A stretch of 62,769 nucleotides of DNA. Source: an uncultured Enterobacteriaceae bacterium (lineage in GTDB: Bacteria; Myxococcota_A; UBA9042). Numbering within the stretch: the stretch's first letter is position 1; the number at the start of each line of letters is the position of its first letter. The notes under the pieces were generated by a model that did no database searches, had not been told where the DNA came from, and was given only the letters and a program-made list of their open reading frames with translations. The stretch is from assembly GCA_964356325.1 (NCBI GenBank), contig CAYHHL010000009.1:1-62769 (forward strand). Reading direction: 5' to 3'. A program made the translations under genes and the position numbers. Of the stretch, positions 1 through 62,769 are shown one piece after another.

Positions 1-285
1 GTACGTGAAAGTGATGGTATTGGTCTTGCCGATGAACACGGTCTTGGTCGTGCGCAACTCGCTCTGGTGCTTGCTGACGTAGGCCATGCCGATTTCGCGT
101 TCCATGCGACCCAAGGCGACCCGCGCGGTGTGGTAGTAGTCCTGCATCTGCTTGGTGTCGCGAATCGCACCAAGAATCGAGGACATGGCCGTGCTGATGA
201 TGACGCCGAGCATGGCCAGCAGCGAAACTGCGATCATGAGCTCGACCATGGTAAAACCCGTGGATCCACGGCGTTCCTTCCTCAT
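1..285 (-). CDS. gspJ: T2SS minor pseudopilin GspJ-like (3' truncated by window edge)
   Basis: Manual translation from ATG 285: MRKERRGSTG|FTMVELMIAVSLLAMLGVII (class III signal), then RVALGRMEREIGMAY. The ATG overlaps the gspI stop (TGATG). Not in the ORF track because it runs off the window. The J assignment rests on gene order. Confidence 0.8.
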   Translation of the reverse strand, partial: MRKERRGSTGFTMVELMIAVSLLAMLGVIISTAMSSILGAIRDTKQMQDYYHTARVALGRMEREIGMAYVSKHQSELRTTKTVFIGKTNTITFTY

Positions 286-1145
286 CACCCACCGCCGGGA
301 GGCTGAGGCATCGCCCCCTGGATCGCGCCTTCCACCTTCTCCATCTGCTTCATCTGCTGGATAGCCTGGGCTTCCTCCTCGCTCACCGCGGTCGTGAACG
401 TCTCGATGTCCAGCGCGCGCTTCTCGCCCTCCTCGTCCTTCCAGGTCAGGTGCAGCACGACCTTGCGCGTCCGGTCCGAGGCCCGTTTCAGGATGCGCGG
501 CAGCAGCTCCGCCACCATGATGCCCATCGACATCTGCAGCACCGAGATGTTGATGTCGCACAAGTTCAGCAGGTTCACACCTTGGTCGCCCGACATCAGG
601 ATGACGCCGAGCAGCGACATCATATCGCCGCCCTTGCTCAAGGCGCCGAGGTCCAGCCCCGCGTCCGTCGCGCCCTTGGCCGCGCCCGCCAGATCCTGCA
701 TCTTCTTGGCCGGATCGCCCGCCGCGCCGTCGCCCGAGTTCAGCTTGTCCAGCGCGCCGGTCTTGGCCAGGCCGTCTTGCGCGTCGGCCAGCACCTTTTG
801 CGCCTGGGTCGACATGTCGCCGATCGCCGCGTCGTCCAGGTTCAGGCCGATCAGGTCGTACTTGCACTTGAATTGCCGGGCGTAGGCCTTGGGCAACTCG
901 CAGTCCTTGCCGGTCACGTCGTTGGTCGGGAAGCCGTCCTTGCGGTACTTTTCCTCGACGTCGAGCATGGTTCCACGCAACAGCAGCGCCGCGACGGTCG
1001 ACCGGTAGATGCGTTTGGAGTACAGCGCCGACGACGACGTGCCCGCCGTGATGATGGTCAGCGCGAACGCCAGCACCGCCATCGCGATGAGCACTTCGAG
1101 CAGGGTAAAACCCCTTTGTTGCCGTCGGTTGCGCGCCACCAGCAC
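285..1145 (-). CDS. gspI: T2SS minor pseudopilin GspI-like, unusually long (286 aa)
   Basis: RG|FTLLEVLIAMAVLAF prepilin motif; GTG start with AAGGAG upstream; lies between gspH and gspJ. Confidence 0.75.
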   Translation of the reverse strand: MLVARNRRQQRGFTLLEVLIAMAVLAFALTIITAGTSSSALYSKRIYRSTVAALLLRGTMLDVEEKYRKDGFPTNDVTGKDCELPKAYARQFKCKYDLIGLNLDDAAIGDMSTQAQKVLADAQDGLAKTGALDKLNSGDGAAGDPAKKMQDLAGAAKGATDAGLDLGALSKGGDMMSLLGVILMSGDQGVNLLNLCDINISVLQMSMGIMVAELLPRILKRASDRTRKVVLHLTWKDEEGEKRALDIETFTTAVSEEEAQAIQQMKQMEKVEGAIQGAMPQPPGGG

Positions 1146-1148
1146 GAA

Positions 1149-1799
1149 TCAGCTCTCCTTGCCGAGCTTGTCGGCGTCGACCTTGTCCTTGTGTACTTTC
1201 GCGGTTCCTTCCAGCGCCTTGACCTCCACCGTCATCACGTCGTCGTCGTCGGCCTGCACGTAGATGAACGCGTTCTCGGTGGTACCATTGGGGAAGAAGT
1301 ACACGTAAGCCATGCCCTTTTCCGTTGGGTTCTGCTGGTGCGAGGTCATCACGGTGCCGAACTTCAGGCCCTTGTCCAGCGTGTACTTCGCTAGCAGGCG
1401 CGATTCGATCGGCGTGAACCCGGAAGTCTGGCTCTTGTCCGGCTCGGCCTGATTCTTGCCTTTTTTCAAAGGCTTCTTCTTGACCGCGTCGTCTTCCTCC
1501 TCGCCCTCGCCCGGCAGCAGGAAGGTCTCGCACGGATCCGAACTGGTCTGCGATTCCGCCCAGTAGGACTGCGTGTCCAGATCGATGACCAACCGGTGGT
1601 TCTTGCCCGAAAGCACTGACAGGTTGTAGAGATAGCGCACGGCGACCGCGAGCTTGCCCGACTCCGACTGCACCGAGGCGCCGCGGATGTTGCTGACTCC
1701 CGCCGCCACCGCGACCGTGACGATGCCGATGACCGCCACGACGACGACCAGCTCGATCAGGGTAAACCCGCGAGAACTACGTGGTTCAGTGCTTGTCAT
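1149..1799 (-). CDS. gspH: T2SS minor pseudopilin GspH-like
   Basis: RG|FTLIELVVVVAVIG motif; C-terminal VYFFPNGTTE typical of GspH/FimT; start revised to ATG 1799 (1808 also possible). Confidence 0.8.
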   Translation of the reverse strand: MTSTEPRSSRGFTLIELVVVVAVIGIVTVAVAAGVSNIRGASVQSESGKLAVAVRYLYNLSVLSGKNHRLVIDLDTQSYWAESQTSSDPCETFLLPGEGEEEDDAVKKKPLKKGKNQAEPDKSQTSGFTPIESRLLAKYTLDKGLKFGTVMTSHQQNPTEKGMAYVYFFPNGTTENAFIYVQADDDDVMTVEVKALEGTAKVHKDKVDADKLGKES

Positions 1800-2271
1800 T
1801 GCCGCCATAGCAGATGTCGTCGTCGCCGCCGTTCTTCTTGTCCGGACCGTTGGAGCACAGCGTGAACGCATCGCCCTGGGCGCTGTAGTTCAGGTCCTGC
1901 TTCCAGGGATCCTTGAGGTTGGCCTGCTTGAGCCGGGCGCGCTTGCCTTCAGTCAGGCTGGCCAGCGAGTCCGGGAACTCGCCCTGGCGCGCCTCGACCG
2001 CCTCGATCACGCCGCCGACCGTGGCGATTTGCGCCTTGGCCGCGTCGATCTTGGCATCGCCGAGCATGCCGAACACGCCGACCGCGAGCGCGCTGCCGAG
2101 CACGCCGATGATCACGATCACCACCATGATTTCAATCAAAGTCATGCCCAGCGAAGCGTGGGGCATGACTTTGATTGTAGTTGCCGCGCGGCGCCGCGCG
2201 ACTCCGTGATGCGCCTGGGTACAGGCTTCGAGTTGCTGCCAAAGATGCAGTTTCAAGACGTTCAGGTTCAT
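1786..2271 (-). CDS. gspG: T2SS major pseudopilin GspG
   Basis: G|MTLIEIMVVIVIIGVL, LKDPW and SNGPD motifs of GspG; AAGGAGG 9 nt upstream of ATG 2271. Confidence 0.85.
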   Translation of the reverse strand: MNLNVLKLHLWQQLEACTQAHHGVARRRAATTIKVMPHASLGMTLIEIMVVIVIIGVLGSALAVGVFGMLGDAKIDAAKAQIATVGGVIEAVEARQGEFPDSLASLTEGKRARLKQANLKDPWKQDLNYSAQGDAFTLCSNGPDKKNGGDDDICYGGNDKH

Positions 2272-2301
2272 CGGTAGCGCCCTCCTTCGGCGCGGAAACT
2301 C

Positions 2302-3561
2302 TCAGCCTCTCATGGACTTCGCAAGTTGCATCATCGGCAGCAGGATCGCCGCCACCAGGAAGCCGACCATCACGCCCATGCCGACGATCATGATCGGCTC
2401 CAGCAGCGAGGTCAGCGCATTCACCCGCGTATCCACCTGATTCTCATAGCTTTCACTCACGTTGCGCAGCATGTTCTCGAGTTCGCCCGAGCGCTCGCCG
2501 ATCGCCACCATGTGCACGACCATCGGCGGAAACTGCTGGCTGCGCTTCAACGGCCCGGCGATGCTGTCACCTTCCCGAATCGCCGCGCGGGCTTCGGCGA
2601 TCACCTTGGCGAGCACGCGATTGGCCACCACGTTCTCGACGATTTCCATCGCGGTCAGCAGCGGCACGCCCGAGGACAACAGCGTCGACAGGGTCCGAGA
2701 AAAGCGTGAGATCGCGATCTTGCGGATGAGGTCGCCCAGCACTGGCACCCGCAGCAGGAACGCGTCCCACGAGTCGGCGCCCTTGTCGGTGGCCAGCCAG
2801 CGCCGAAAGCCTACGGTTGCGCCGACCGCGAGCAGGATGCCCAACCACCAGAAGCTCGAGAACAGGCTCGAGATGAAGATCAAGGCCTTGGTGATCAACG
2901 GCATCTCGGTGCCAAGATCGGTGAACATCCCGGTAATCGTTGGCACCACGAAGATCATCATCGCCGAGACGATGAGGGTGGCGATGCACAACATGATGAC
3001 CGGATAGGTCATGGCGCCGATGATCTTGTTGCGCAGGCGCACTTGCGATTCGGTGAAGTCGGCCAACCGCAGCAGCACGACGTCCATGTTGCCCGAGCTC
3101 TCACCCGCGCGGACCATGTTGAAGTACGTGACGCCAAAGACTTTCGGGTGCGCGCCCAACGCCCGCCAGAACGGCGCGCCCTCGTTCACGTCGGTGCGCA
3201 CCTGGGCAAGGACGCGCTTGAGCTTGGGGTTTTCGATCTGCTCGACCGTGGCGCCCAGCGCATCGACCAACGGCACGCCGGCCTTGAGCAAGGTCGCCAT
3301 CTGCCTGGTCATTTCCGAGACGTCGTTGGGCGAGATGCGCGTGAGCAGTTCTTCGAGGTCGAAGTCGCGCGAGCCGGCCTTCTGCACCGCACCGGCGCGG
3401 ATCTTGGCCTTGCCGCCCTTGACCGAAGTCTCGTGGTACTCGGTGAGGAAAACCTTGTCGCGGCGCAACGCGGACTTGAGCGAACGCACGCTCTCGACAT
3501 CAAGGACTCCCTTGATGGTGCGGCCACTTGAATCCTTGCCTATGTATTCAAAGACCGGCAT
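2302..3561 (-). CDS. gspF: T2SS inner-membrane platform protein GspF
   Basis: Two T2SSF domains (RQMATLLKAGVPL, GESSGNMDVVL, MTYP, GERSGELENML, LLEP). Confidence 0.95.
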   Translation of the reverse strand: MPVFEYIGKDSSGRTIKGVLDVESVRSLKSALRRDKVFLTEYHETSVKGGKAKIRAGAVQKAGSRDFDLEELLTRISPNDVSEMTRQMATLLKAGVPLVDALGATVEQIENPKLKRVLAQVRTDVNEGAPFWRALGAHPKVFGVTYFNMVRAGESSGNMDVVLLRLADFTESQVRLRNKIIGAMTYPVIMLCIATLIVSAMMIFVVPTITGMFTDLGTEMPLITKALIFISSLFSSFWWLGILLAVGATVGFRRWLATDKGADSWDAFLLRVPVLGDLIRKIAISRFSRTLSTLLSSGVPLLTAMEIVENVVANRVLAKVIAEARAAIREGDSIAGPLKRSQQFPPMVVHMVAIGERSGELENMLRNVSESYENQVDTRVNALTSLLEPIMIVGMGVMVGFLVAAILLPMMQLAKSMRG

Positions 3562-3658
3562 GGAGGTTCCTGATGAGCACTGCTTCTAATTCTGGGCGTT
3601 CAATTCCAGTCGCTCGGCGACCCATTGTGATGCGTGATTGCGATGGCACTGCAGAGAC

Positions 3659-5467
3659 CTAATCTTCTTGGTCTTGATTGGCGATGCGCATCACCTCTTC
3701 CACGGTTGTAGAGCCGCGCAGCACCTTGTAGGCGCCGTCGTTCAGCAGCGTTTGCATGCCGCTCGCCACCGCCGCGCGCTTGATCGTCCCCGCGTCGTTC
3801 TTGGCCACGATCAGCCGCTTGATTTCCTCATTGGGAATGAGCAGTTCGTGTAGACCCATCCGACCTGCGTAGCCCGTCATGCCGCACTGCGGACAGCCCT
3901 TCGCCGAGTAGATGGTCGCCGTCGCCAGCCGCGGATCGGTGCGCGCGATGCCCAGTTGCTCCAGTTCCAGATCGGTCGGGATGTGCGGCTGCCGGCAGTC
4001 CCGGCACAGCACGCGACACAGCCGTTGCGCCAGGATGCCGATGATCGACGACGACAAAAGGAATGGTTCCACGCCCATGTCGACCATACGGGTATAGGTC
4101 GAGGCCGCGTCGTTGGTGTGCACCGTCGAAAGCACCAGGTGGCCGGTCAGCGCCGCTTGCACCGCGATTTCAGCGGTTTCCAGGTCGCGGATTTCACCCA
4201 CCAGCACCACGTCCGGATCCTGACGCAGCGTAGCGCGCAGACCGCGGGCAAAGGTGAAGTCGATCTTGGGGTTGACCTGCATCTGGCCGATGCCTTCCAA
4301 CTGGTATTCGACCGGATCCTCGATGGTCAAGATGTTGATATCCGGGTTGTTGATCGACATCAGCGCCGAGTACAGCGTGGTCGTCTTGCCTGAACCGGTC
4401 GGCCCCGTGCACAGCAAGATGCCGTTCGGACGGTGCACCAGCTGGTTGATCGCCTCCACGACGTCTTCGCGCATGCCCAGCGTCTTCAAATCCAGCGTAG
4501 TCGAGCCCTTGTCGAGCAGACGCATCACGATCCGCTCGCCGTGCGCAGTCGGGATCGTGCTCAAGCGCAAGTCGATGTCGCGGCCCGCCACCTTGATGCG
4601 GATGCGGCCGTCTTGGGGCAGGCGCTTCTCGGCGATGTTCAGGTTGCCCATGATCTTGACGCGGCTGGTGATGGAAGCCTGGAACTTCTTGGAGGTCCGC
4701 ACCACCTCGCGCAGCACGCCGTCCTTGCGGAAGCGCACCAGCACGTACTTCTCCATCGGCTCGATGTGCACGTCCGAGACGCGTTCCTTGGCCGCCTGGT
4801 TCAGCACCGAATTCACCAGCCGGATGATCGGCGCTTCGTCGTCCTCGTCGAGGATGTCCTTGGCCGCGTCCTCCAGTTCCATCGCGATGTCGGCGACGCC
4901 GGAGTCGGTTTTCTCCATGTCGTCGAGCACTTGATCGGCACGCGCGCGGCGGTCGAAAGCGAAGTTGATGGCGTGGTTCAGCACGTCGGGAGTCACCAAC
5001 ACCGGTTCGACCTGGACGCCGCCGAACAGCACGCGCAAGTCGTCCAGCGCCGAGGTCGCCATCGGATTGCTGGTCGCCACCGTCAACACGCCGTTCAGCT
5101 TGTGAATCGGCAGAAGTTCCGACTCCTTGGCCCAGCCCATCGCCAACGGCGCCACCAGCGACACGTCGATGTTCGCCTCGTCGATACTGTCCTGTACGGT
5201 CATGCCCAGCTGCGAACCGAGCGCCTGCATCAGCTGAAGTCGTGTGATCGCCAGGTGTTGGATGAGCAGCTCGCCGATCAGCCCGCCGCGCTCGCCCTGC
5301 ACCTTCAGCGCGCTCTCGACCGCCTCGACCGTGCACCAGCCGCGTCCGACCAGGATCTCACCCAGCGCGCGCGGATCGATCTGTGGCGCCACGGCCGGAC
5401 GCTGTGTCGGCGCCGGACTCTGCGGCGGCAGTGGAATCGACATCATCGTGGTGGCTTCGAGCGTCAC
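3659..5467 (-). CDS. gspE: T2SS ATPase GspE with N-terminal MshEN-like domain
   Basis: Walker A GPTGSGKT, TIEDPVEY, Walker B LVGEIRD, His box STVHTND, CRDC...CPQC zinc module; GTG start overlaps the gspD stop. Confidence 0.95.
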   Translation of the reverse strand: MTLEATTMMSIPLPPQSPAPTQRPAVAPQIDPRALGEILVGRGWCTVEAVESALKVQGERGGLIGELLIQHLAITRLQLMQALGSQLGMTVQDSIDEANIDVSLVAPLAMGWAKESELLPIHKLNGVLTVATSNPMATSALDDLRVLFGGVQVEPVLVTPDVLNHAINFAFDRRARADQVLDDMEKTDSGVADIAMELEDAAKDILDEDDEAPIIRLVNSVLNQAAKERVSDVHIEPMEKYVLVRFRKDGVLREVVRTSKKFQASITSRVKIMGNLNIAEKRLPQDGRIRIKVAGRDIDLRLSTIPTAHGERIVMRLLDKGSTTLDLKTLGMREDVVEAINQLVHRPNGILLCTGPTGSGKTTTLYSALMSINNPDINILTIEDPVEYQLEGIGQMQVNPKIDFTFARGLRATLRQDPDVVLVGEIRDLETAEIAVQAALTGHLVLSTVHTNDAASTYTRMVDMGVEPFLLSSSIIGILAQRLCRVLCRDCRQPHIPTDLELEQLGIARTDPRLATATIYSAKGCPQCGMTGYAGRMGLHELLIPNEEIKRLIVAKNDAGTIKRAAVASGMQTLLNDGAYKVLRGSTTVEEVMRIANQDQED

Positions 5468-8400: not shown

Positions 8401-8499
8401 CACCAAAACGCCAGTCTTGTCGCAGGCACGCCGCAGGGACGGCGGCGGCTGGCTTGGCTTGCCCGGCTTGTCAGCCAGCGTGGGTCGGAACGGACGCAA
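5464..8499 (-). CDS. gspD: T2SS secretin GspD
   Basis: N0 (VTLDFQDAPI), repeated N domains, KQVYVEAVIMEI, NVLSTPHILTLNNEDAEITVG, LKITPQIN, KIPILGDLPLLGMFFR. Likely start is TTG 8499 after GGAGAG (ORF track starts at 8553). Confidence 0.95.
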   Translation of the reverse strand: MRPFRPTLADKPGKPSQPPPSLRRACDKTGVLVLICALLLPGMAHAQQAAAPPGDKTIPVKTGAGTLNKKGKTKDLKATGSGVFKRGGGKQSLDPDYDPAQTSKKLGVDGGPSDPVVPTPAGGGRAGKDDQAGAAKGAIGDDDLKKMGDDVVAIKNNISDIKCKKLPANAKVTLDFQDAPIEAVMKLVSCWTTRNFILATQKRGGKITIISPQPVSVYEAYRAFLSSLMVNGMSVTKKGAFYHIVDTADARTSGATVVGPTSAVPNDDNMVTRIIRLKNLDAKEVEPLVTKFKSKAGDIFVYPPNNSLIVTDTGTNIHSIMKLLNDVDLPLGAEKIWIRPVQHMDASELVEKITAVFEGAGGKGGATTPGSPPGAAGGPAGNKVTLSKAIADDRSNQLILIATRSNYLKIDALIRKLDVPIPGEGAIHIHHLENADAEDVASTLSSLAGGGGGAKAGAARGKTGGAKAGGAKGGGTATLFEGDVKITAHKATNALVIESSLKDYLSLQKVIAELDRRRKQVYVEAVIMEISTSKNRKTQLAGSTGVKFDIGQYKDVPFLIGLGGLGMGGVSLQQLNAGGFAAGLQGPLLQVDAGNTGAVPAGATLSIPAFGFLIQAIQENSDVNVLSTPHILTLNNEDAEITVGRKIPYRSQSMGGSALGGLGGLSGLGGAASSLGGLGGLGGLLGGALGGTVQHLEVDLTLKITPQINESDFIKLKIDQQLDEVEGISPDLGPTTSKRKITNTVVVRDQQPVVIGGLITDRETTGVSKIPILGDLPLLGMFFRKTTKLLEKKNLLLIIVPHIIKDPSDLERMHENKMQQIREFAEELATKQKEYEGKVDYRKKRGFLEAVFQTVEKASEERKLQEKAYFDNADVDLVGPPERHDLNFDPFKAQKQKDAQDRKNQGKPDAEGRLDDESDDGTVPEVIDLPEAEKPGGGKASGKAKDDDASDRLDGEKPGRESAAPAATSAPKAKTVPVKGKTAPKAKGKKAGPDSAPAKEDSAPKTPEPKP

Positions 8500-8572
8500 A
8501 GGGCACTCTCCGATGCGGACGTTGGTCCGCTGGTGGTGGCACGAAAAGCCCATCCCACCCAGATGGTTCGAT

Positions 8573-9598: not shown

Positions 9599-9678
9599 GC
9601 TCGCCTGTTCTCGCACGTCAGCTAGGTTGCCGACTCGCCCTTGGTGGCCCTGGCTACACCAGCACTAGTCCGATTAGA

Positions 9679-13649: not shown

Positions 13650-13732
13650 CGCCTGCCTCCGCGCCCATTCTCGCGACTGGCCGGACCGACTGGACCGTGC
13701 CACCGTTGCGAACTCTCACGCTGCTTCCATGA

Positions 13733-13748
13733 TGCACGCCCCGTGCCA
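13733..13748 (-). promoter_or_regulatory. sigma-54 promoter of the fusion gene-truA unit
   Basis: Minus strand reads TGGCACG-GGGC-GTGCA: exact -24 box, GG-N10-GC spacing, one mismatch in -12; about 85 nt upstream of ATG 13649. Confidence 0.7.
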
Positions 13749-13850
13749 AAGCCGCTCGCCCGGAACATCTGACGAAACAGGCGGATGCGCCCCGATCGCA
13801 GCTACAGCGCCTGCCGTCCCGTCACGGTCTCGAGTCTACCGCGCCCCCCG

Positions 13851-13867
13851 GTGTGCCAAACTGGCAA
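13851..13867. promoter_or_regulatory. Palindromic candidate bEBP enhancer site (copy 2)
   Basis: GTGTGCCAAACTGGCAA, 16/17 identical to 9797-9813; core starts at 13854, 106 bp from the -24 T at 13748. Confidence 0.65.
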
Positions 13868-13888
13868 AGGCGCGCGAACTCACCGCCG

Positions 13889-47734: not shown

Positions 47735-47746
47735 TCGCCGCTTCGC

Positions 47747-51087: not shown

Positions 51088-51158
51088 TTCGAGTGCAAGC
51101 ACTCGAATTGGCTCAGGATGACATCGCCTGCTTCGAGTGCTTAGCACTCGAGGCAGGC
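51088..51158. repeat. Two related palindromes overlapping the end of the matrixin-like gene
   Basis: TTCGAGTGC-AA-GCACTCGAA (51088-51107) and GCCTGCTTCGAGTGC-TTA-GCACTCGAGGCAGGC (51126-51158). Confidence 0.75.
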
Positions 51159-53189: not shown

Positions 53190-53343
53190 TTCCGTCCATC
53201 TCGCGCGCAGAACCGGCGCGCGTTTTCGCTGGCAAACCATCGCCCTGACTGTAGGCGTCCGCGGCTGTGGAGTCCACCGCTAGCACAGTGGCTCGCTCGG
53301 CCAAAGGCAGGGGTGCAGAACAATAGGCGAAACATTGAATTGC

Positions 53344-56115: not shown

Positions 56116-56214
56116 CGGCCGATCCTGGCTGAAAGTCGGTCCCAGGCGCCAACTCGAGCCTTCCTGTCAGACTCCGAAATCAGCGGCCGAGGTCGAAAAT
56201 AGCTGGGCTGAGTG

Positions 56215-56243
56215 TTGACGGCCTACCTGACCTCGGGTACACA
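56215..56243 (+). promoter_or_regulatory. Possible sigma-70 promoter of tRNA-Gly
   Basis: TTGACG-17 nt-TACACA about 55 nt upstream of the tRNA. Confidence 0.45.
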
Positions 56244-56296
56244 TGCACCCGCTTGAAGCGACCCAGCGTGTTGCGGAAAGCGAGAGTAGATACCGT

Positions 56297-56371
<75 letters not shown>

Positions 56372-57013: not shown

Positions 57014-60000
57014 ATGCGAAGTCAGCGGTCTGCACGCACGCTGCGCGTGGCGCTGTTCGCGGTGGTGTTGGCGTGCGTTTCGGCATGTCAGACTCCGGCC
57101 GCGGATGCGCCCTCTGGACAACTCGCTGACTTTGCGAGTGGTGTCGATGCCGAATTCGGGGTCGAGACCTTCGCGTTGACCACGCCGACGCTCAAGATCA
57201 CGTCGCCGGAGCCGAACAAGCAGTTCGGCACCGACTTCACCGTCGCTGGCGCCTTGAAGGTGCCGGTCTGCCTCTACCCGAGCGATGCCAACGTCGGCCT
57301 CAACGCCGGCCAGAACAAGATCGTCTGCTACTTGGACGGCGGCACGCCCCTGAGCACGGCCAAGCCAGTTCCCGCCAACGATCCGTCTGGTTGCGCGTTC
57401 AATACCTTCTCGGTCACGTTCGCGGCGGTGCCCCAGAAGCTCGGTATGCACGCCATCGAGTGCACCCTGGCCGACGCCAACGGCGCGCCGCTCACCAACG
57501 CAACCGCTCACGACGTCACGCATTTCTTCGTCACCGGCGATCCGCTCAGCGTCGATCCGGCCAACAAGTGCGGCAGTGACGCCGACTGCGACGACGGCAA
57601 CGCCTGCTCGACCACGGACAAGTGCCAGGATTTCCATTGCGTCTACTCGTACGACGCCGCGCTGACCTGCTGCAACAACAGCCTGGACTGCGTCGCGGGC
57701 GAGGCGTGCCTGAATCCGAACACCGTGACCGCCAAGTGTTCTTCGTGTCAGAACGACAGCGAGTGCAACGACAACAAGAAATGCACCACAGACAAGTGCG
57801 ATCTGAGCGGTGTCAAAGGTACTTGCGCCAACTTCAAGTTGGACCCGACCTGCTGCGAGGATGCCACCGACCTGTGCGACGACGGCAAGGCGTGCACCAA
57901 CGACAAGTGCAATGTCGTGACCGGGAAGTGCGAGCACGACCAGCCCAAAGGCGTGTGCTGTCAGGCCCAGGACTGCAACAACAGCGACGAGTGCCTGGTC
58001 GCGAGCTGCGTCGATCTCGAGTGCCGCTACGGCAAGGACATCTTCAAGCCGGACTGCTGCTCGACGATCACCAACGCCCTGTGCGACGACAAGAACCCGT
58101 GCACCATCGACAAGTGCGACCAGAGCCAGGGCGCCACGCCGAACTGGACGAAGTGCTCGCACGTCTCCGATCCGGCCAAGCCCAAGTGCTGCGACATCGT
58201 TGGCGACACCAAGTGCGACGACGGCAACATATGCACCGCGGACGTCTGCGAAGCCTTCGAGTGCAAGAACATCCCCATCGGCGAGTGCTGCGTCAAGGAC
58301 ATCGACTGCGACGACCAGAAGGAGTGCACGCAGGACAGCTGTGACGCCCAGGCCGGCAAGTGCGTGCACGCCAAGGGCGATCCGCTGTGCTGCACCGACA
58401 ATCCGGACTGCGTCGACAACCTGTTTTGCACCGTCGCGAGCTGCGACATCGCGGCCAAGAAGTGCGTGTTCTCCACGCCTGACCCGACTTGCTGTGACGC
58501 TGACGCCAGTTGCGACGATGGCAACATTTGCACCGTCGACGCCTGCGTGAACCACTACTGCGTGCACGGCCCCGACGCCAACATGACGAACTGCTGCAAC
58601 GGCCAGGCCGACTGCAACGACAACGACGTTTGCACCATCGATAGCTGCAACGTCACCTCGCACAAGTGCGAAGTCATCGACAACGGCGATCCGTCCTGCT
58701 GCCAGAACCAGCTCGACTGCGACGACCTGGACTGCTCGACGCTGAACTTCTGCGACGCCAACAACAAGTGCCAGTACAAGCCTTATCCCGAGTTGTGCAC
58801 CAAGGACGTCGAGTGCGAGGACAACGACGCCTGCACCAACGACAGTTGCGACCTCAGCTCCGGATGCGGCCAGTGCAAGCACGAGGCGAGCACGACCTGC
58901 TGCGTGGCCGACTACCAATGCGACGACAGCAAGCCCATCGGCACCACGCCGGCCAATCCCAGCGCCTCGTGTACGACCGACAAGTGCGTCGACGGCGCCT
59001 GCCAGAACAACGCGATCGCCGGCTGCTGCGTCGACGACAAGGACGCGTTGACCGCCTGCGACGACAAGAACGCTTGCACCATCGACTATTGCGTGAACAA
59101 CCAGTGCCGGCACACCGCGCCCAAGAACGGTTGCTGCGCCGCGATCGCGGACTGCAACGACGGCGACAAGTGCACGACCGACGCCTGCAAGAGCATCGAT
59201 CCGGTCACCAAGATCGGCAGTTGCACGAACCTCGCCGTGCCGGATTGCCAATGCACGCAGGCCGGCGCCTTCAACGGCTCGGAATGCAACGACGGCAACG
59301 ATTGCACCACCGACGCCTGCAGTGTCACGACCAGCAAGTGTACGCACTCGGCGATCGAGGGTTGCTGCGTCGACAAGTTCGACTGCAACGACGGCAACGC
59401 CTGCACCGCGGACTTCTGCATCCTGGCTTCGTGCTTTTACTACTCCAGCGTCGGCGGCACTGCGGTGTGCTGCTCGCCCGCCACCCAGGATGTCGATTGC
59501 GCTTACCTGAACACCGAGTGCGCCAAGGGCGTGTGCTCTGATCAGGTCGACGGCAGCAAGAAGTGCACGGCCGAAACGGTGCCGGTCTGTACGGTCAACA
59601 TCGGCTACTGTCAGGACTTTTCCGCCAGCACCAACCTGCAGGCGATGGGCTGGAATCCGGGCGATGTCTCGGGCAACGGCGCCAAGAACTGGGGCCTGGC
59701 CAAGGACGGCGCCTTGGGGCCGGATCAGCACGCGCGCTTCAGCTGGACGCCGACGACCATCAACTACAACACGTGCTTGCAGTCGCCGATCATCCAGGCG
59801 GCCGGTGCCACCACGATCACGATGCAGTTCGACCGCGAGTTCGTGTGGAACCAGGGCGAGACCGACATCACGGTGTACGGCACCTTGGACGGCGCCAACG
59901 CGGACTGGACCAATGCCACGCAAATCGACACCTTGAAGATGACCGCCGACCTCGCCGCGCAGACCGTGGACTTCACGCTGCCGGCGGAACTGTCGGGCTC

Positions 60001-62769
60001 CAACGGCCTGCGCCTGGGCATCTGCGTCCAAGGCACCAGCACGTTCAACCTGACCAGCTTCGCCCTGGACAACATCTGCATCGTCAAGGGCAACAAGCCG
60101 GTGTTCTCGAAGTGCCCGGTCAACCAGGTGGTTCCGCTCGGCGCCAAGAAGTACCTGCCGCTCAAGGCCTACGACCCGGACACCGACGCCATCCTCTCGT
60201 TCTCGCTGGTCAAAGCGCCGTCGTTCATCACCCTGACGAGCGCGCTGTACTACTGGCTCGACACCAGCTGGAACACGACCATGGTCATCGATCCGACCAC
60301 CACCGCGCACGTCGGCACCTGGCCCGTCACGATCAAGGTCAGCGACGGATCGCTCTACAGCACCTGCACTTTCGACGTCATCGTCACTTACAAGGGTGGC
60401 TACCTGGTCTGGCGCCCGAGTGAAGTGCCGGTGGCGGCTGGCGACGCGATCTTCAATTCGATCAAGTCCAAGGGCAAGATCGTCCAGCACATCAGCGACA
60501 TGAGCCTGTACCCGGACCTCGTGGGCTTTGACGGCGTGTTCGTCACCCTGGGCGTCTACCCGAACAACCACGTGCTGACCGACACCGAAGCCGGTCCGCT
60601 GTCGCTGTACCTGGCCCAGGTCGGCCACGTGTACATGGAAGGTGGCGATACTTGGGCATTCGATCCGCCCACGCAGCTGCACGCCCTGTTCAAGGTGCTG
60701 GCCCAACAGGACTCGACGCCAGCGGGGATCACCGGGCCGCTCAATGGCCTGGCGTCGCCGTACATCGACATCTTCCAGGCGCCGATCAAGACCTACAACT
60801 TCGCGTACGACCAGGGTTATGACTGGAACAACCTGAACGACATCATCACCGGCAAGGTGACGATCCACCGCACCAAGAACATCTTGTCGAACACGATGAC
60901 CACGGGCGAGATCGTCCAGGTCGCGCACGATGACGATACAGGCTATCGCTCGGTCGGTTCGACGATCTTGTTCGGCGGCGTGATCGCCGGTCCCGACGAC
61001 ATCAACGGCATGATGGGCCGCGTGCTGGACTTCTTCGACAACGGCTTCGTCGAGTGCAAGGGCGCCACCGACTGCGAAGACAACAACATCTGCACGATCG
61101 ATACTTGCGTCAGCGGCGAGTGCGGCCACAAGAGCACGTGCAGTTGTTCGGCCTCGGCGTCCCTGACCTGCGGCGAAACCTTGACGCTGGTCAGCAACGG
61201 CACCGGCTCGACCAACAGCGTCGTCGATTACGCTTGCGACACCGCGGTCAAGTACACGGGCGCGGAACAGGCCATCAAGTTCGCGACTGCGACTTCCTCG
61301 CCGGTCACCCTCACGGTCACCGGCTTGACCAACCCCGCCGCCAAGGTCTTGGTTCTCAAGGCCAACGACTCGGGCTGCGACCCGGCGGCGTGCATCGCGC
61401 TCGGCGACGCGTCCAAGCCGATCGTGTTCGCGGGCGCGGCGGGCGCTTCGTACTTCGTGGTGCTCGACGTGCCGGCTGGTGGCACCGCGCAGGCCGACGT
61501 GAAGTTCCAGTGCGGCGCTGGCGAAAACTGCTCGAACAAAGTCGACGACAACAGCAATGGCCTGGTCGACTGCGCGGACCTGCTGTCGTGCTGCGGCGAC
61601 GCGGCGTGCGGCGAAGTCTGTGACGGCTTGGACAATAACTGCGACGGCAAGGTCGACGAGGGCTGCGACGACGACGCCGACAAGTTCTGCGACAAGGACA
61701 TGACCGTCGTCAACACGCCGCCCATCTGCCCGCTCGGCGGCCTGGACTGCAACGACACGCAAGCGACCGTAAATCCAGGGACTCCCGAGATCTGCTCCAA
61801 CGGCAAGGACGACAACTGCAACGGCGTGCAGGACGAAGAGAACGCGGTGGGCTGCACCAACTTCTGGGTCGATCTCGACGGCGACGGCTTCGGCGGCGGC
61901 GTGCCCAAGTGCTTGTGCGGACCTTCGGGCGCGTTCTCGGCCAAGAAGGGCAACGACTGCAACGACGCGAACATCAAGGTGAACCCCGCGGCGATCGAGA
62001 TCTGCGGCAACACCATCGACGACGACTGCTCCGGCTCGCAGAACGACTTGAACGCCCAGGGTTGCTCGGACTTCTACACCGACAGCGACGTCGACCAGTG
62101 GGGCGCATTGCCCAAGAAGTGCCTGTGCTTCGGCGCGGGCGTGACCACTGCCACCAAGCCCGGCGACTGCAACGACAGCGACAAGCAGGTGAACCCGGAA
62201 TTGCTCGAGACCTGCAACAACCAGGACGACAACTGCAACAACGTGATCGACGAAGGTTGCGACGATGATCTGGACGGTTATTGCGACATCAACCTGGGTT
62301 ACGTGACCATCGGCGGCTCGGCCAAGCTGTGCGGCCAGGGTGCGATCGGCACCGACCTGACCGTCACCTGCGAAGCCGGCATGACGATCACCAGCGTCGA
62401 CTTCGCCAGCTACGGCACGCCGAGCGGCGGCTGCGGCACCTACCAGACCGGCGTCTGCCACGCGCCGACCTCGGCCCAGGCGGTCAAGAACCTGTGCTTG
62501 GGCAAGGCCAGTTGCACCATCGCGGTGAACAACCCGACGTTCAGCAGCGATCCGTGCCCCGGCTTTGCCAAGATCCTCGACGTTCAGGTCACTTGCACCG
62601 GCAATGGCGGCGTGGCCCCGGACGTGTGCGTCAAGGGCCCGGGCGATACCGACGACCTCGACCCGTTGATCAACCCGAACGGCAAGGAGATCTGCGACGG
62701 CAAGGACAACAACTCGGACCTCAAGGTCGACGAGGGTTGCGATGACGACGGCGACGGCTTCTGCGACGC
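57014..62769 (+). CDS. Giant Cys-rich surface lipoprotein (3' truncated): CTDC-type repeats, beta-sandwich/Ig and GATase-like domains, PPC-like domain, MopE-type repeats and a SUEL lectin domain
   Basis: ATG 57014 after AGGAGG; MRSQRSARTLRVALFAVVLACVSA|C lipobox. No stop found in the segments translated by hand, and the ORF track lists nothing ending in this frame, so it appears open to the window edge (1918 codons). About 18 C(D/N)DxxxCTxDxC repeats; ExCDGxDNxCDGxxDEGC repeats; FASYGTPSGGCG..CLGKASC..DPCPG. Confidence 0.9.
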   Translation, partial: MRSQRSARTLRVALFAVVLACVSACQTPAADAPSGQLADFASGVDAEFGVETFALTTPTLKITSPEPNKQFGTDFTVAGALKVPVCLYPSDANVGLNAGQNKIVCYLDGGTPLSTAKPVPANDPSGCAFNTFSVTFAAVPQKLGMHAIECTLADANGAPLTNATAHDVTHFFVTGDPLSVDPANKCGSDADCDDGNACSTTDKCQDFHCVYSYDAALTCCNNSLDCVAGEACLNPNTVTAKCSSCQNDSECNDNKKCTTDKCDLSGVKGTCANFKLDPTCCEDATDLCDDGKACTNDKCNVVTGKCEHDQPKGVCCQAQDCNNSDECLVASCVDLECRYGKDIFKPDCCSTITNALCDDKNPCTIDKCDQSQGATPNWTKCSHVSDPAKPKCCDIVGDTKCDDGNICTADVCEAFECKNIPIGECCVKDIDCDDQKECTQDSCDAQAGKCVHAKGDPLCCTDNPDCVDNLFCTVASCDIAAKKCVFSTPDPTCCDADASCDDGNICTVDACVNHYCVHGPDANMTNCCNGQADCNDNDVCTIDSCNVTSHKCEVIDNGDPSCCQNQLDCDDLDCSTLNFCDANNKCQYKPYPELCTKDVECEDNDACTNDSCDLSSGCGQCKHEASTTCCVADYQCDDSKPIGTTPANPSASCTTDKCVDGACQNNAIAGCCVDDKDALTACDDKNACTIDYCVNNQCRHTAPKNGCCAAIADCNDGDKCTTDACKSIDPVTKIGSCTNLAVPDCQCTQAGAFNGSECNDGNDCTTDACSVTTSKCTHSAIEGCCVDKFDCNDGNACTADFCILASCFYYSSVGGTAVCCSPATQDVDCAYLNTECAKGVCSDQVDGSKKCTAETVPVCTVNIGYCQDFSASTNLQAMGWNPGDVSGNGAKNWGLAKDGALGPDQHARFSWTPTTINYNTCLQSPIIQAAGATTITMQFDREFVWNQGETDITVYGTLDGANADWTNATQIDTLKMTADLAAQTVDFTLPAELSGSNGLRLGICVQGTSTFNLTSFALDNICIVKGNKPVFSKCPVNQVVPLGAKKYLPLKAYDPDTDAILSFSLVKAPSFITLTSALYYWLDTSWNTTMVIDPTTTAHVGTWPVTIKVSDGSLYSTCTFDVIVTYKGGYLVWRPSEVPVAAGDAIFNSIKSKGKIVQHISDMSLYPDLVGFDGVFVTLGVYPNNHVLTDTEAGPLSLYLAQVGHVYMEGGDTWAFDPPTQLHALFKVLAQQDSTPAGITGPLNGLASPYIDIFQAPIKTYNFAYDQGYDWNNLNDIITGKVTIHRTKNILSNTMTTGEIVQVAHDDDTGYRSVGSTILFGGVIAGPDDINGMMGRVLDFFDNGFVECKGATDCEDNNICTIDTCVSGECGHKSTCSCSASASLTCGETLTLVSNGTGSTNSVVDYACDTAVKYTGAEQAIKFATATSSPVTLTVTGLTNPAAKVLVLKANDSGCDPAACIALGDASKPIVFAGAAGASYFVVLDVPAGGTAQADVKFQCGAGENCSNKVDDNSNGLVDCADLLSCCGDAACGEVCDGLDNNCDGKVDEGCDDDADKFCDKDMTVVNTPPICPLGGLDCNDTQATVNPGTPEICSNGKDDNCNGVQDEENAVGCTNFWVDLDGDGFGGGVPKCLCGPSGAFSAKKGNDCNDANIKVNPAAIEICGNTIDDDCSGSQNDLNAQGCSDFYTDSDVDQWGALPKKCLCFGAGVTTATKPGDCNDSDKQVNPELLETCNNQDDNCNNVIDEGCDDDLDGYCDINLGYVTIGGSAKLCGQGAIGTDLTVTCEAGMTITSVDFASYGTPSGGCGTYQTGVCHAPTSAQAVKNLCLGKASCTIAVNNPTFSSDPCPGFAKILDVQVTCTGNGGVAPDVCVKGPGDTDDLDPLINPNGKEICDGKDNNSDLKVDEGCDDDGDGFCD

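What the first reader, a model, noticed from the sequence alone, without database searches (positions are those of the whole stretch)
1..62769. Whole-window model: an export-fold-display locus for modular surface adhesins
Seen together within 63 kb: a T2SS, two MYXO-CTERM-like proteins, a Glt outer-membrane platform, at least nine predicted lipoproteins (most Cys-rich or Ig-repeat), a triple DsbA and a shared sigma-54 enhancer. Established: the T2SS surfaces MYXO-CTERM proteins, and the Glt platform displays a VWA adhesin in Myxococcus. Inference: this lineage uses the Glt/T2SS core with an expanded, interchangeable adhesin set (DUF2135, VWA, SUEL and pseudoprotease tips) for surface or prey recognition. 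Physical clustering alone does not prove a shared function.
Basis: inference. Interest (0 to 1): 0.7.

Follow-up and report, generated by a model that had tools for sequence, protein, structure and literature searches.

The report
Clustered myxobacterial surface-protein gene modules
This 63-kb stretch from an uncultured freshwater myxobacterium carries several real cell-surface systems side by side (a secretion system, a gliding-type outer-membrane machine with its own adhesins, a triple disulfide-forming enzyme), but only two pairs of them show evidence of working together, so the proposed single "export-fold-display" locus is only partly supported.

Summary
These are a delta-type T2SS, two MYXO-CTERM-like proteins, a Glt-like outer-membrane/periplasmic operon, ten lipoproteins, a triple DsbA, an E-to-Q matrixin, a SUEL lectin and two VWA/MIDAS lipoproteins. 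DUF2135 was not found.

The "shared sigma-54 enhancer" is real and conserved in a distant relative. It serves only two promoters: gspC and the SgmI-like/barrel fusion gene.

Two functional links are supported:
- T2SS with the MYXO-CTERM/barrel fusion, through matching sigma-54 promoters and a shared palindrome.
- A VWA-lipoprotein-headed gltB-A-C-D-E-F-like operon, found in about 80 species-level genomes, with an Ig-stalk lipoprotein triad (IgL4-IgL5vwa-IgL6). The triad stays adjacent through a rearrangement.

The whole 63-kb order is conserved only within one clade, and there the interspersed housekeeping genes are conserved too. In more distant relatives T2SS, fusion gene, DsbA and matrixin are not found within 10 kb of the Glt-like operon (about 20 kb on one side in one genome), and a distant multi-domain DsbA sits in an unrelated context. 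Metatranscriptome contigs show separate transcription units at very different levels.

Verdict: neighbouring modules, not one machine. It is a new variant of known systems, of moderate interest.

The parts
285..9616 (-). T2SS operon, window part: two pseudopilins (285-1145, 1149-1871), gspG (1786-2271), gspF (2302-3561), gspE (3659-5467), gspD (5464-8553), gspC (8573-9616). The remaining gsp genes lie beyond the window start.
   Evidence: Pfam T2SSG/F/E, Secretin and N_methyl. NCBIfam GspC_delta at 220 bits, above the 150 cut-off. Low, patchy RNA contig depth.
9680..9813 (-). Sigma-54 type promoter TGGCACGACCCTTGC (9680-9694) with upstream palindromic site GTGTGCCAAATTGGCAA (9797-9813), in front of gspC.
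   Evidence: The same pair of elements lies upstream of gspC in relative L005.
9959..11035 (+). Tenth lipoprotein: 358 aa, 13.7 % Cys, with four CGxNGCGxxCGxC-type repeats. It is divergent from gspC.
   Evidence: Repeat family D7, translation with lipobox GFGC, Cys count. An orthologue occupies the same position in L005. No Pfam or NCBIfam hit.
11874..13649 (-). SgmI (MXAN_2561)-like FN3 surface protein with an internal MYXO-CTERM, followed in frame by a second signal peptide and an MXAN_2562-like outer-membrane barrel.
   Evidence: NCBIfam NF045522, TIGR03901 and NF040596 all hit one ORF. Nine cluster representatives of 591-613 aa, down to 44 % identity, keep the fusion.
13734..13867 (-). Second sigma-54 type promoter TGGCACGGGGCGTGC (13734-13748) with the same palindrome GTGTGCCAAACTGGCAA (13851-13867).
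   Evidence: Conserved upstream of the fusion gene in L005.
11041..18253 (-). Interspersed housekeeping genes: truA (11041-~11850), asd (13889-14968), PP2C phosphatase (15125-16153), class II aaRS (16281-17726), HU (17945-18253).
   Evidence: Pfam. Same order in relatives. HU has the highest RNA depth in the window.
18467..25759 (-). IgL1 (18467-20719), IgL2 (20809-23331) and IgL3 (23384-25759): paralogous Cys-containing lipoproteins built of Ig/ASH (choice-of-anchor D) and PKD-like domains.
   Evidence: 29-36 % identity over the full length to each other and to IgL4. IgL3 forms a 2.7-kb RNA contig (23103-25831, depth about 20) that fits a sigma-70-like promoter at 25877-25849.
26104..27972 (+). 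First gene of the Glt-like operon: a 622-aa Cys-rich lipoprotein with a VWA domain and intact MIDAS motif (DHSGS at residues 194-198, nt 26683-26697). It is CglB-like in function class.
   Evidence: Lipobox. Alignment of 34 orthologues. AlphaFold2 pLDDT 85.5, pTM 0.88. Foldseek hits to ITIH1, TRAP and integrin CR3 I-domain. The family has only 189 representatives.
28032..29786 (+). Two GltB/GltA-like outer-membrane beta-barrels (about 28032-28799 and 28869-29786).
   Evidence: TIGR04565 OMP_myx_plus at 92 and 76 bits, above the 60 cut-off. More distant relatives have only one barrel.
29825..38233 (+). GltC-like (29825-31771), GltD-like 1250-aa TPR protein (31841-35593), GltE-like TPR protein with a Cys-rich N-terminal extension (35612-37837), and a GltF/CglF-like mini-protein (about 37958-38233).
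   Evidence: NF033756 at 1.6e-57 over its full length, NF033758 at 2.4e-14, NF033764 at 1.6e-7, all below the equivalog cut-offs. TPR Pfam hits. The order is conserved in about 80 loci. The GltD assignment rests on position, size and TPR content only.
38230..38275 (+). Strong hairpin directly after the gltF-like stop codon; probable end of the operon.
   Evidence: -33.2 kcal/mol, z = -5.9. There is no U-tract, so the terminator scan does not call it.
38584..46324 (+). Lipoprotein triad: IgL4 (38584-40791; chain of Ig/ASH domains), IgL5vwa (40853-44227; five choice-of-anchor-D domains plus a C-terminal VWA with MIDAS DNSGS, nt 43310-43324), IgL6 (44330-46324).
   Evidence: MIDAS is invariant in 13 orthologues. 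IgL4 AlphaFold2 pLDDT 83.8, with Foldseek hits to Ig/ASH-repeat proteins. The triad is also adjacent, but divergent, in the 44-47 % clade.
46406..48892 (.). Arginine-deiminase-family gene (46406-47734, +) and HEAT-repeat lipoprotein (47747-48892, -).
   Evidence: Pfam ADI and HEAT_2, lipobox. No RNA contigs in three metatranscriptomes.
48909..50963 (+). Triple DsbA-type oxidoreductase with an N-terminal membrane anchor and CPFC motifs at residues 74, 312 and 517.
   Evidence: Pfam Thioredoxin_4 and DSBA, three domains. NF041057 at 249 bits, above the 190 cut-off. Motifs. High RNA depth of 21-35.
51141..53240 (-). Matrixin-like protein with HQLGHAIGLGH (catalytic Glu replaced by Gln), 54 Cys and a MYXO-CTERM-like tail.
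   Evidence: PF00413, sequence, TIGR03901 at 17.1 bits against a cut-off of 20.
54037..56371 (+). Ser/Thr kinase with a PEGA domain (54037-56115) and tRNA-Gly (56297-56371).
57014..62769 (+). Giant Cys-rich lipoprotein, cut by the window end (3838 aa in a relative), with CTDC-type and MopE-type repeats and a SUEL lectin domain at about 62366-62596.
   Evidence: SUEL PF02140 at 72.5 bits, above the 31.4 cut-off. 3838-aa orthologue. RNA contigs from about 56811-56854 onward at depth 11-22.

Best explanation
The window is a conserved chromosomal neighbourhood of an uncultured freshwater Myxococcota clade. Several separately transcribed cell-envelope modules lie side by side. Two pairs of modules are real functional units; the rest are neighbours.

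Unit 1. A delta-type T2SS operon and a gene for an SgmI-like MYXO-CTERM surface protein fused to its outer-membrane barrel are each driven by a sigma-54 promoter. Both promoters have the same palindromic upstream site at the same spacing. One enhancer-binding protein therefore probably switches on the secretion system together with a substrate or anchor pair (inferred). By analogy with Myxococcus, that protein would be cleaved and lipidated by myxosortase and moved to the surface by the T2SS (inferred).

Unit 2. A seven-gene operon encodes a Cys-rich VWA/MIDAS lipoprotein, two GltB/A-like barrels, GltC-, GltD- and GltE-like periplasmic TPR proteins and a GltF-like mini-protein. By analogy with CglB held in the GltABHK platform, the barrels would hold and expose the VWA lipoprotein, and the TPR proteins would couple it to the periplasm (inferred). 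The Ig-stalk lipoprotein triad IgL4-IgL5vwa-IgL6, and its paralogues IgL1-3, are accessory surface proteins of this machine (shown as conserved adjacency; function inferred).

The triple DsbA, the E-to-Q matrixin and the giant SUEL-bearing lipoprotein are disulfide-rich envelope genes. They sit nearby in this clade only. DsbA probably oxidises all of these proteins as a general periplasmic service, not as a dedicated locus component.
For: The gene content and every motif were verified.

Unit 1:
- Exact sigma-54 consensus plus a 16-base shared palindrome at about 105 bp occurs only before gspC and before the fusion gene.
- Both elements recur before the same two genes in L005, where GspC is 55 % and the fusion 46 % identical.
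- RNA contig depth is low for both in all three metatranscriptomes.
- MYXO-CTERM proteins need the T2SS in M. xanthus (10.1101/2023.06.07.544157).
- sgmI and MXAN_2562 are described as apparently co-transcribed (10.64898/2026.08.28.747804).

Unit 2:
- The order VWA-lipoprotein, barrel(s), GltC, GltD, GltE, F is kept in nearly all of 80 loci with GltC at 34-73 % identity.
- All recovered orthologues of the first gene have lipoboxes and 11-55 Cys (19 or more in all but one).
- MIDAS motif and VWA fold.
- Ig lipoproteins lie upstream in 17 of 20 and downstream in 21 of 22 loci of the window's clade. In the 44-47 % clade they lie upstream and divergent in 16 of 19.
- In L088 the triad IgL4-IgL5vwa-IgL6 is intact.

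Neighbours only:
- Housekeeping genes are conserved between the blocks.
- No T2SS, fusion, DsbA or matrixin hit occurs in any GltC-anchored locus or in L088.
- A distant multi-DsbA sits in an unrelated context.
- RNA depth in run X4: DsbA 21-35, giant 18-22, IgL3 about 20, Glt 2-9, T2SS 0-4, ADI/HEAT 0.
Against: - The whole 63-kb order is kept in every relative of the clade that could be checked, at 60-72 % GltC identity. That is also what a selected super-locus would show.
- In M. xanthus, gspD (MXAN_2514), gltK-B-A-C (MXAN_2538-2541) and sgmI/barrel (MXAN_2561/2562) lie within about 48 locus tags. GspD depletion abolishes gliding there (PMC12475490). A T2SS-Glt connection therefore cannot be excluded.
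- Distant relatives were seen only to +/-10 kb (20 kb on one side once). In the window the T2SS lies 16 kb from the Glt-like operon.
- The expression data are assembler contig depths from three samples. They are not read counts, and DNA carry-over is not excluded.
Confidence: 0.68

Rival explanations
1. The whole window is one functional export-fold-display super-locus: DsbA folds the adhesins, and the T2SS and Glt platform act together as a core that displays an interchangeable set of them.
For: - All component types are present within 63 kb.
- The order is conserved across the clade.
- DsbA and the giant Cys-rich lipoprotein are both highly transcribed.
- M. xanthus also has T2SS, gltKBAC and sgmI within about 48 genes, and GspD is needed for gliding.
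Against: - Housekeeping genes are conserved inside the 'locus'.
- The palindromic UAS is confined to two promoters.
- The blocks are unlinked from the Glt-like operon in more distant relatives, within the range seen.
- A distant multi-DsbA homologue (41 % identity) lies in an unrelated context, and the family has more than 5,000 members.
- Lipoproteins use Lol or surface-lipoprotein routes, while MYXO-CTERM proteins use myxosortase plus T2SS. These are two separate pathways (literature).
- IgL1-4 are full-length paralogues, not tip-swapped proteins.
- RNA depths are unequal.
Confidence: 0.15
2. Pure inherited synteny. Apart from genes within single operons, none of the modules is functionally connected, and the shared palindrome and the Ig-lipoprotein adjacency are incidental.
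For: - Housekeeping genes are as well conserved in position as the surface genes.
- About 14 of 17 loci with GltC below 44 % identity lack Ig-lipoprotein neighbours.
Against: - The palindrome and sigma-54 promoter are conserved before both genes at 46-55 % protein identity, where the intergenic DNA is otherwise unalignable.
- The IgL4-5-6 triad stays next to the operon despite moving from downstream co-directional to upstream divergent.
Confidence: 0.1
3. The Glt-like operon is not a gliding or adhesion device. It is a paralogue with another role, as Nfs is for spore-coat assembly or like the M. xanthus G4/G5 clusters of unknown function. The lipoproteins would then be cargo or structural envelope proteins, not adhesins.
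For: - All Glt model hits are below the equivalog cut-offs.
- No gltG/H/I/J/K or aglRQS in the window or in the annotated neighbours of three relatives.
- Luciano et al. report that the G3-G5 paralogues have non-motility roles (PMC3169522).
Against: - The first gene has an intact MIDAS VWA fold of the kind used by CglB, TRAP and integrins.
- The operon is transcribed in lake water in vegetative-type communities.
- This rival concerns what unit 2 is for, not the linkage verdict.
Confidence: 0.3

Closest known systems
Myxococcus xanthus Agl-Glt gliding (bacterial focal adhesion) machinery with the adhesin CglB (Luciano 2011, PMC3169522; Islam 2023, PMC9946355)
   Same: - OMP_myx_plus barrels.
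- A GltC homologue aligned over its full length.
- Large TPR proteins in the GltD and GltE positions.
- A GltF/CglF-like mini-protein.
- A Cys-rich VWA/MIDAS outer-membrane lipoprotein whose model hits the same integrin CR3 I-domain (1JLM) reported for CglB.
   Different: - Everything is in one operon headed by the VWA lipoprotein. In M. xanthus, gltKBAC, gltD-J and aglRQS form three separate clusters and cglB belongs to none of them.
- No gltK, gltG, gltH, gltI, gltJ or aglRQS in the window.
- All family scores are below the equivalog cut-offs.
- The VWA protein (622 aa) matches no NCBIfam family at E up to 0.1.
- The GltE-like protein has a 20-Cys N-terminal extension.
- An Ig-stalk lipoprotein triad lies alongside.
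Nfs (G3) and G4/G5 Glt paralogue clusters of M. xanthus, and the merged G1+G2 arrangement of Anaeromyxobacter (Luciano 2011)
   Same: - Single-locus order A-B-C-D-E-F, as in nfsA-H.
- The paralogues have non-motility or unknown functions.
- Some of the 80 related loci come from MAGs labelled Anaeromyxobacteraceae.
   Different: - The operon ends after F with a hairpin; there are no G or H genes.
- It is headed by a VWA lipoprotein.
- Orthology to any particular paralogue could not be tested, because no M. xanthus sequences were reachable.
M. xanthus T2SS / MYXO-CTERM / myxosortase pathway and the sgmI (MXAN_2561)-MXAN_2562 pair
   Same: - Delta-type GspC.
- MXAN_2561-family FN3 protein with a MYXO-CTERM, followed by an MXAN_2562-family barrel.
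- T2SS dependence of MYXO-CTERM proteins is established in M. xanthus.
   Different: - Here the two proteins are one in-frame ORF.
- The gene and the T2SS operon carry matching sigma-54 promoters with a shared palindrome.
- They are 4 kb apart instead of about 47 genes.
Bdellovibrio MIDAS-family adhesin Bd0875 (PMC11003981)
   Same: The C-terminal VWA of IgL5vwa matches NCBIfam NF052240 'MIDAS family adhesin' (4e-13). Both are lipobox-bearing MIDAS proteins of predatory-type bacteria.
   Different: - The score is far below the cut-off (49 against 700).
- IgL5vwa carries five choice-of-anchor-D Ig domains.
- It lies next to a Glt-like operon.
Multi-domain DsbA / Rcas_1661-family thioredoxin-like proteins of Myxococcota
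   Same: Three DsbA domains with CPFC motifs. NF041057 scores above its cut-off. There are thousands of relatives with three or four domains.
   Different: Nothing distinctive. Adjacency to Cys-rich surface genes holds only in this clade.

Membership tests
Type II secretion system (delta-proteobacterial type) | GspC, GspD secretin, GspE ATPase, GspF platform and GspG major pseudopilin in one operon | tested here: met
   Pfam hits. GspC_delta equivalog at 220 bits, above the 150 cut-off.
Type II secretion system (delta-proteobacterial type) | Complete set gspH-N | not testable with these tools
   The window ends after two minor pseudopilins.
MYXO-CTERM sorting-signal proteins | TIGR03901 match at or above 20 bits, located at the C-terminus | tested here: inconclusive
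   Fusion ORF: 22.7 bits, but internal (residues 337-368 of 609) and followed by a second signal peptide and a barrel. Matrixin tail: C-terminal, but 17.1 bits, below the cut-off.
MYXO-CTERM sorting-signal proteins | Myxosortase encoded in the genome | not testable with these tools
Agl-Glt gliding machinery (M. xanthus type) | GltA/GltB-type outer-membrane barrels | tested here: met
   TIGR04565 OMP_myx_plus at 92.3 and 76.1 bits, above the 60 cut-off.
Agl-Glt gliding machinery (M. xanthus type) | Equivalog-level GltC, GltE and GltF(CglF) | tested here: not met
   NF033756 at 195.6 bits against 450, NF033758 at 53.1 against 225, NF033764 at 31.2 against 90. They are homologous, but not at equivalog level.
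Agl-Glt gliding machinery (M. xanthus type) | GltD (AgmU) homologue | tested here: inconclusive
   Only generic TPR, YbgF and BamD models hit the 1250-aa protein. The assignment rests on size, TPR content and its conserved position between the GltC- and GltE-like genes.
Agl-Glt gliding machinery (M. xanthus type) | GltG/GltJ TonB-like linkers, GltH, GltI, GltK and the AglRQS motor | tested here: not met
   None is in the window or among the annotated neighbours in relatives.
CglB-type VWA gliding adhesin | Outer-membrane lipoprotein, Cys-rich, with a VWA fold and MIDAS DxSxS...T...D | tested here: met
   Lipobox LVSC, 25 Cys, DHSGS at 194-198 and TDG-type motif, VWA fold hits including 1JLM.
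CglB-type VWA gliding adhesin | Sequence-family membership with M. xanthus CglB | tested here: not met
   No NCBIfam or Pfam family at E up to 5-10. No PDB sequence hit. It works like CglB but cannot be filed as CglB.
Sigma-54 promoter with upstream activator site | -24 GG / -12 GC consensus at correct spacing, a UAS about 100 bp upstream, conserved in relatives | tested here: met
   The enhancer-binding protein itself is not in the window and was not found.
Matrixin (M10) metalloprotease | HExxHxxGxxH with catalytic Glu | tested here: not met
   HQLGHAIGLGH at residue 195. The fold family matches (PF00413, 5e-11), so it is a probable pseudoprotease.
SUEL (Gal/Rha-binding) lectin domain | PF02140 above the gathering score | tested here: met
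   72.5 bits against 31.4, E = 3.9e-20.
DUF2135 | PF09906 match in any of the lipoproteins | tested here: not met
   No hit at E up to 5 in whole proteins or C-terminal slices.
DsbA-type oxidoreductase | Thioredoxin fold with a CxxC active site; here three copies | tested here: met
   Pfam DSBA and Thioredoxin_4, three domains. CPFC at 74, 312 and 517.

The most novel reading that the evidence does not exclude
The regional linkage of T2SS, the SgmI-like MYXO-CTERM/barrel pair and the GltB-A-C platform is ancestral in Myxococcota. The three lie within 30 kb here and within about 48 locus tags in M. xanthus (MXAN_2514, 2538-2541, 2561/2562). On this reading the linkage reflects a real functional coupling: the T2SS, whose secretin is needed for gliding in M. 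xanthus, supplies surface components that the Glt-type outer-membrane platform and its operon-encoded VWA adhesin need. The operon-encoded VWA lipoprotein plus the Ig-stalk triad would be the original adhesin set of Glt-type machines.
Probability: 0.12. Interest if true: 0.72.

Novelty: new variant of a known kind. Interest (0 to 1): 0.45.

Why it matters
Gliding in Myxococcus is the model for bacterial focal adhesions, yet there the adhesin gene cglB belongs to none of the three machine clusters (gltKBAC, gltD-J, aglRQS).

In a large, uncultured and apparently widespread freshwater Myxococcota radiation, a VWA adhesin-like lipoprotein is built into the operon of the outer-membrane and periplasmic parts. 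It keeps a triad of Ig-stalk lipoproteins beside it. This gives concrete candidates for what Glt-type platforms display outside the model organism.

The matched sigma-54 promoter/UAS pairs give a testable case of a T2SS co-regulated with one MYXO-CTERM substrate.

The negative result is equally useful. Conserved 63-kb order inside one clade, with housekeeping genes embedded, should not be read as a functional super-locus.

Tried and rejected
As a result there was no search of the window's own genome for aglRQS, gltG/H/I/J/K, myxosortase or the sigma-54 activator, and no phylogenetic profiling.
- The first genome-contig scan, using the fusion protein alone, found nothing.
- A sigma-54 pattern with one mismatch is no more frequent than chance window-wide (5 found, 6 expected). 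Only the exact site, and the site that shares the palindrome, were accepted.
- The ORF 9622-11013 (-) that passed the GC3 filter was rejected. A plus-strand Cys-repeat lipoprotein gene is there instead.
- No repeat family links the Glt or Ig promoters to the palindrome.
- Pfam, NCBIfam and PDB sequence searches of the 622-aa lipoprotein gave nothing. The fold came only from the orthologue alignment and AlphaFold.
- DUF2135 was never detected.
- The 608-aa gene near asd in L088 looked like a fusion orthologue by size, but it is unrelated.
- GC3 gene calling failed on low-GC loci.
- Pfam on the extra upstream genes of L003 gave nothing.
- The terminator scan did not call the hairpin after gltF, because it has no U-tract.
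- Co-expression proper could not be tested. Only assembler contigs of three metatranscriptomes were available.
- Orthology to the Glt, Nfs, G4 or G5 paralogues could not be tested, because no M. xanthus sequences were reachable.

Full report
ORIGIN AND GENE MAP

The window is a high-GC (62-69 %) metagenome contig. The same DNA occurs in two ENA lake assemblies and in three freshwater metagenome runs. GltC relatives come almost only from uncultured Myxococcota MAGs, many from lakes.

Gene calling by GC3 plus Pfam and NCBIfam gives the following.

Minus strand:
- two pseudopilins, gspG, gspF, gspE, gspD, gspC (285-9616)
- truA
- a 609-aa ORF joining an MXAN_2561 (SgmI)-like FN3 protein with a MYXO-CTERM to an MXAN_2562-like barrel (11874-13703)
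- asd, a PP2C phosphatase, a class II aaRS and HU
- three Ig-repeat lipoproteins, IgL1-3 (18467-25759)

Plus strand:
- a Cys-repeat lipoprotein (9959-11035)
- a 622-aa lipoprotein, two OMP_myx_plus barrels, GltC-like, a 1250-aa TPR protein, a 741-aa TPR protein and a CglF/GltF-like mini-protein (26104-38233)
- IgL4, IgL5vwa and IgL6 (38584-46324)
- an ADI-family gene
- a triple DsbA
- a Ser/Thr kinase, tRNA-Gly and a giant Cys-rich lipoprotein

A HEAT lipoprotein and a matrixin-like gene lie on the minus strand between these.

CHECK OF THE OBSERVATION

Each listed feature is present.
- GspC_delta passes its equivalog cut-off.
- TIGR03901 reaches 22.7 bits inside the fusion ORF and 17.1 bits, just under the cut-off of 20, at the matrixin C-terminus.
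- Nine lipoboxes are present, as implied. A tenth lipoprotein at 9959-11035 came to light through repeat family D7.
- The DsbA has three CPFC motifs.
- The matrixin motif reads HQLGHAIGLGH.
- A SUEL lectin domain scores 72.5 bits in the giant protein.
- DUF2135 was not found in any protein or C-terminal slice.

THE SIGMA-54 ELEMENTS

The exact consensus TGGCAC-N5-TTGC occurs once, at 9680-9694 (-), about 65-85 bp before the candidate gspC start codons. A one-mismatch version lies at 13734-13748 (-), before the fusion gene.

The one-mismatch pattern is at chance frequency window-wide. Both accepted sites, however, have GTGTGCCAAA[T/C]TGGCAA about 105 bp upstream, and no other copy exists in the window even with three mismatches allowed.

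In L005, GspC is 55 % and the fusion 46 % identical. There, TGCCA-N3-TGGCA palindromes again lie about 116 bp upstream of TGGCACGATGCTTGC (before gspC) and TGGCACGGACTGTGC (before the fusion gene).

The regulatory pair is therefore real and conserved. It joins only the T2SS and the MYXO-CTERM/barrel gene.

THE GLT-LIKE OPERON

The 622-aa first gene had no sequence-family or PDB sequence hit.
- A search of 1.84 billion representatives found only 189 relatives.
- An alignment of 34 orthologues taken from related loci shows an invariant lipobox Cys, DxSGS and TDG-type motifs and many invariant Cys.
- The AlphaFold2 model (pLDDT 85.5, pTM 0.88) matches VWA domains: ITIH1, a bacterial VWA protein, Plasmodium TRAP and the integrin CR3 I-domain 1JLM. 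1JLM is the template reported for CglB (PMC9946355).

The operon thus starts with a CglB-like adhesin candidate. It ends at a -33 kcal/mol hairpin just after the gltF-like stop codon. CglF is GltF (10.1101/2023.10.19.562135).

All Glt-specific model scores are below the equivalog cut-offs. No gltG/H/I/J/K or aglRQS is in the window. This is a Glt-family machine, not demonstrably the gliding one. Luciano et al. describe Nfs, G4 and G5 paralogues with other or unknown roles.

THE IG LIPOPROTEINS

- IgL1-4 are 29-36 % identical over their whole length.
- The IgL4 model (pLDDT 83.8) is a chain of Ig/ASH-type beta-sandwiches.
- IgL5vwa has five choice-of-anchor-D domains and a C-terminal VWA. It matches the Bdellovibrio MIDAS adhesin model (4e-13), and its DNSGS, TTD and SDEED motifs are invariant or nearly so in 13 orthologues.
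- IgL6 has a different architecture.

The 'swappable tips' picture does not fit IgL1-4, which share one architecture.

SYNTENY TESTS

Relative at 72 % GltC identity. The gene order of the whole window recurs, housekeeping genes included.

Other members of the clade. The left half recurs in L005 and the right half in a Lake Baikal MAG. GltC and triple-DsbA homologues share contig lengths in at least nine assemblies. Because truA, asd, PP2C, aaRS and HU are equally fixed in position, this conservation cannot tell selection for clustering from slow rearrangement.

80 GltC-anchored loci from species-representative genomes, screened by tblastn with 34 window proteins:
- The core order VWA-lipoprotein, barrel(s), C, D, E, F is present in nearly every locus with enough flank, at GltC identity 34-73 %.
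- Ig lipoproteins lie upstream in 17 of 20 and downstream in 21 of 22 loci of the window's clade.
- In the 44-47 % clade they lie upstream and divergent in 16 of 19, and downstream in 0 of 14.
- Below 44 % they lie upstream in only 3 of 17.

Walking outward in one 44-47 % genome (L088). The triad IgL4-like, IgL5vwa-like and IgL6-like is intact (IgL6: E = 1e-14). It is followed by RNase H, LexA and metabolic genes. A 608-aa gene there is unrelated to the fusion.

Other blocks. No GltC-anchored locus contains a T2SS, fusion, DsbA3 or matrixin homologue. For the window's own clade this is uninformative, because those genes lie more than 10 kb away. A four-domain DsbA homologue from a distant genome sits among unrelated genes.

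EXPRESSION

Three metatranscriptomes from the same samples hold parts of the window. These are assembler contig depths, a crude measure.

| Feature | Depth in X4 / X5 / X6 |
|---|---|
| HU | 121 / 52 / 13 |
| IgL3 | about 20 / 10-14 / 5-12 |
| Triple DsbA | 21-35 / 8-13 / 2-4 |
| Giant lipoprotein | 18-22 / 11-16 / 1-13 |
| gltF-like region | 20 / 9-10 / 2 |
| Rest of the Glt-like operon | 2-9 / 0-5 / 0-3 |
| IgL4-6 | 3-12 / 1-8 / 0-2 |
| T2SS, fusion gene, matrixin | 0-4 / 0-3 / 0 |
| IgL1-2 | 0-3 / 0-3 / 0 (trace) |
| ADI, HEAT | 0 |

DNA depth is a flat 5-8.

IgL3 gives one 2.7-kb contig (23103-25831). Its end fits a sigma-70-like promoter at 25877-25849.

The blocks are therefore separate transcription units with levels differing more than ten-fold. 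Three samples cannot test co-variation.

LITERATURE CONTEXT

- MYXO-CTERM proteins need the T2SS in M. xanthus.
- GspD is essential and required for gliding there (PMC12475490).
- SgmI (MXAN_2561) is a MYXO-CTERM FN3 protein, and the barrel gene MXAN_2562 downstream appears to be co-transcribed with it.
- gspD is MXAN_2514 and gltK-B-A-C are MXAN_2538-2541.

These three modules therefore lie within about 48 locus tags in Myxococcus too. This is the main reason not to dismiss a deeper T2SS-Glt relation. It is carried as the novel case at low probability.

CONCLUSION

Two functional links are supported:
- T2SS with the MYXO-CTERM/barrel fusion, through a shared sigma-54 UAS.
- The VWA-headed Glt-like operon with the Ig-stalk triad.

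The triple DsbA, pseudo-matrixin and giant lectin-bearing lipoprotein are clade-specific neighbours. The DsbA most likely serves them as a general periplasmic oxidase (inference).

Earlier notes of this scan report the VWA-headed operon in other genomes. I reproduced that independently with 80 loci. One note assigns single-barrel forms to the M. xanthus G5 type, which I could not test.

Noticed in passing
window 11874-13703 (-): The in-frame fusion (MYXO-CTERM, then RRRK, then a second signal peptide and a barrel) is not an assembly error. All nine homologous cluster representatives are 591-613 aa, down to 44 % identity, so the polyprotein layout is conserved in this clade.
   Followed up: partly
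window 9959-11035 (+): A 358-aa lipoprotein with 49 Cys (13.7 %) and four CGxNGCGxxCGxC-type repeats. It is divergent from gspC and shares the intergenic region that holds the sigma-54 UAS. It is conserved at this position in L005 and has no family hit.
   Followed up: partly
window 56496-56603: A 51-nt near-perfect inverted repeat downstream of tRNA-Gly. Metagenome DNA depth there jumps to about 100, against 5-8 elsewhere, with many loose ends. This suggests a high-copy REP/MITE-like element or a repeat shared with other organisms.
   Followed up: no
window 23103-25877 (-): After HU, IgL3 is among the most highly transcribed genes of the window in situ. One RNA contig runs from just downstream of a sigma-70-like promoter into the start of IgL2. 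Its paralogues IgL1 and IgL2 are nearly silent.
   Followed up: partly
window 37831-38448: The gltF-like mini-gene region has 3-5 times more RNA contig depth than the upstream gltD/E-like genes. It ends at a very stable hairpin. This could reflect an internal promoter or a protected 3' fragment.
   Followed up: no
window 35612-37837 versus L003 and L004: The Cys-rich N-terminal extension of the GltE-like protein (741 aa, 22 Cys) is specific to the window's clade. Distant orthologues are 465-531 aa.
   Followed up: partly
related loci L003-L085: Two barrels (GltB/A-like) occur in the window's clade, while most more distant relatives have a single barrel. Lipoprotein subtype tracks neighbourhood: 'C-DSTAKF' types keep Ig lipoproteins next door, and 'C-NYRW' types do not.
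   Followed up: partly
window 53439-53726 (+): A 95-aa ORF with Cys motifs lies between the matrixin-like gene and the kinase. A 95-aa gene occupies the same position in two relatives, and an RNA contig covers it. It has no family hit.
   Followed up: no
window 46406-48892: The ADI-family gene and the HEAT-repeat lipoprotein gene yielded no RNA contigs in any of three metatranscriptomes, although their neighbours on both sides are transcribed.
   Followed up: no
L003 3174-6555; L059 3565-4839: In the subfamily without Ig neighbours, two other conserved genes lie directly upstream of the VWA lipoprotein gene: a roughly 422-aa lipoprotein and a roughly 700-aa protein, both without family hits. 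They are possibly alternative partners.
   Followed up: partly
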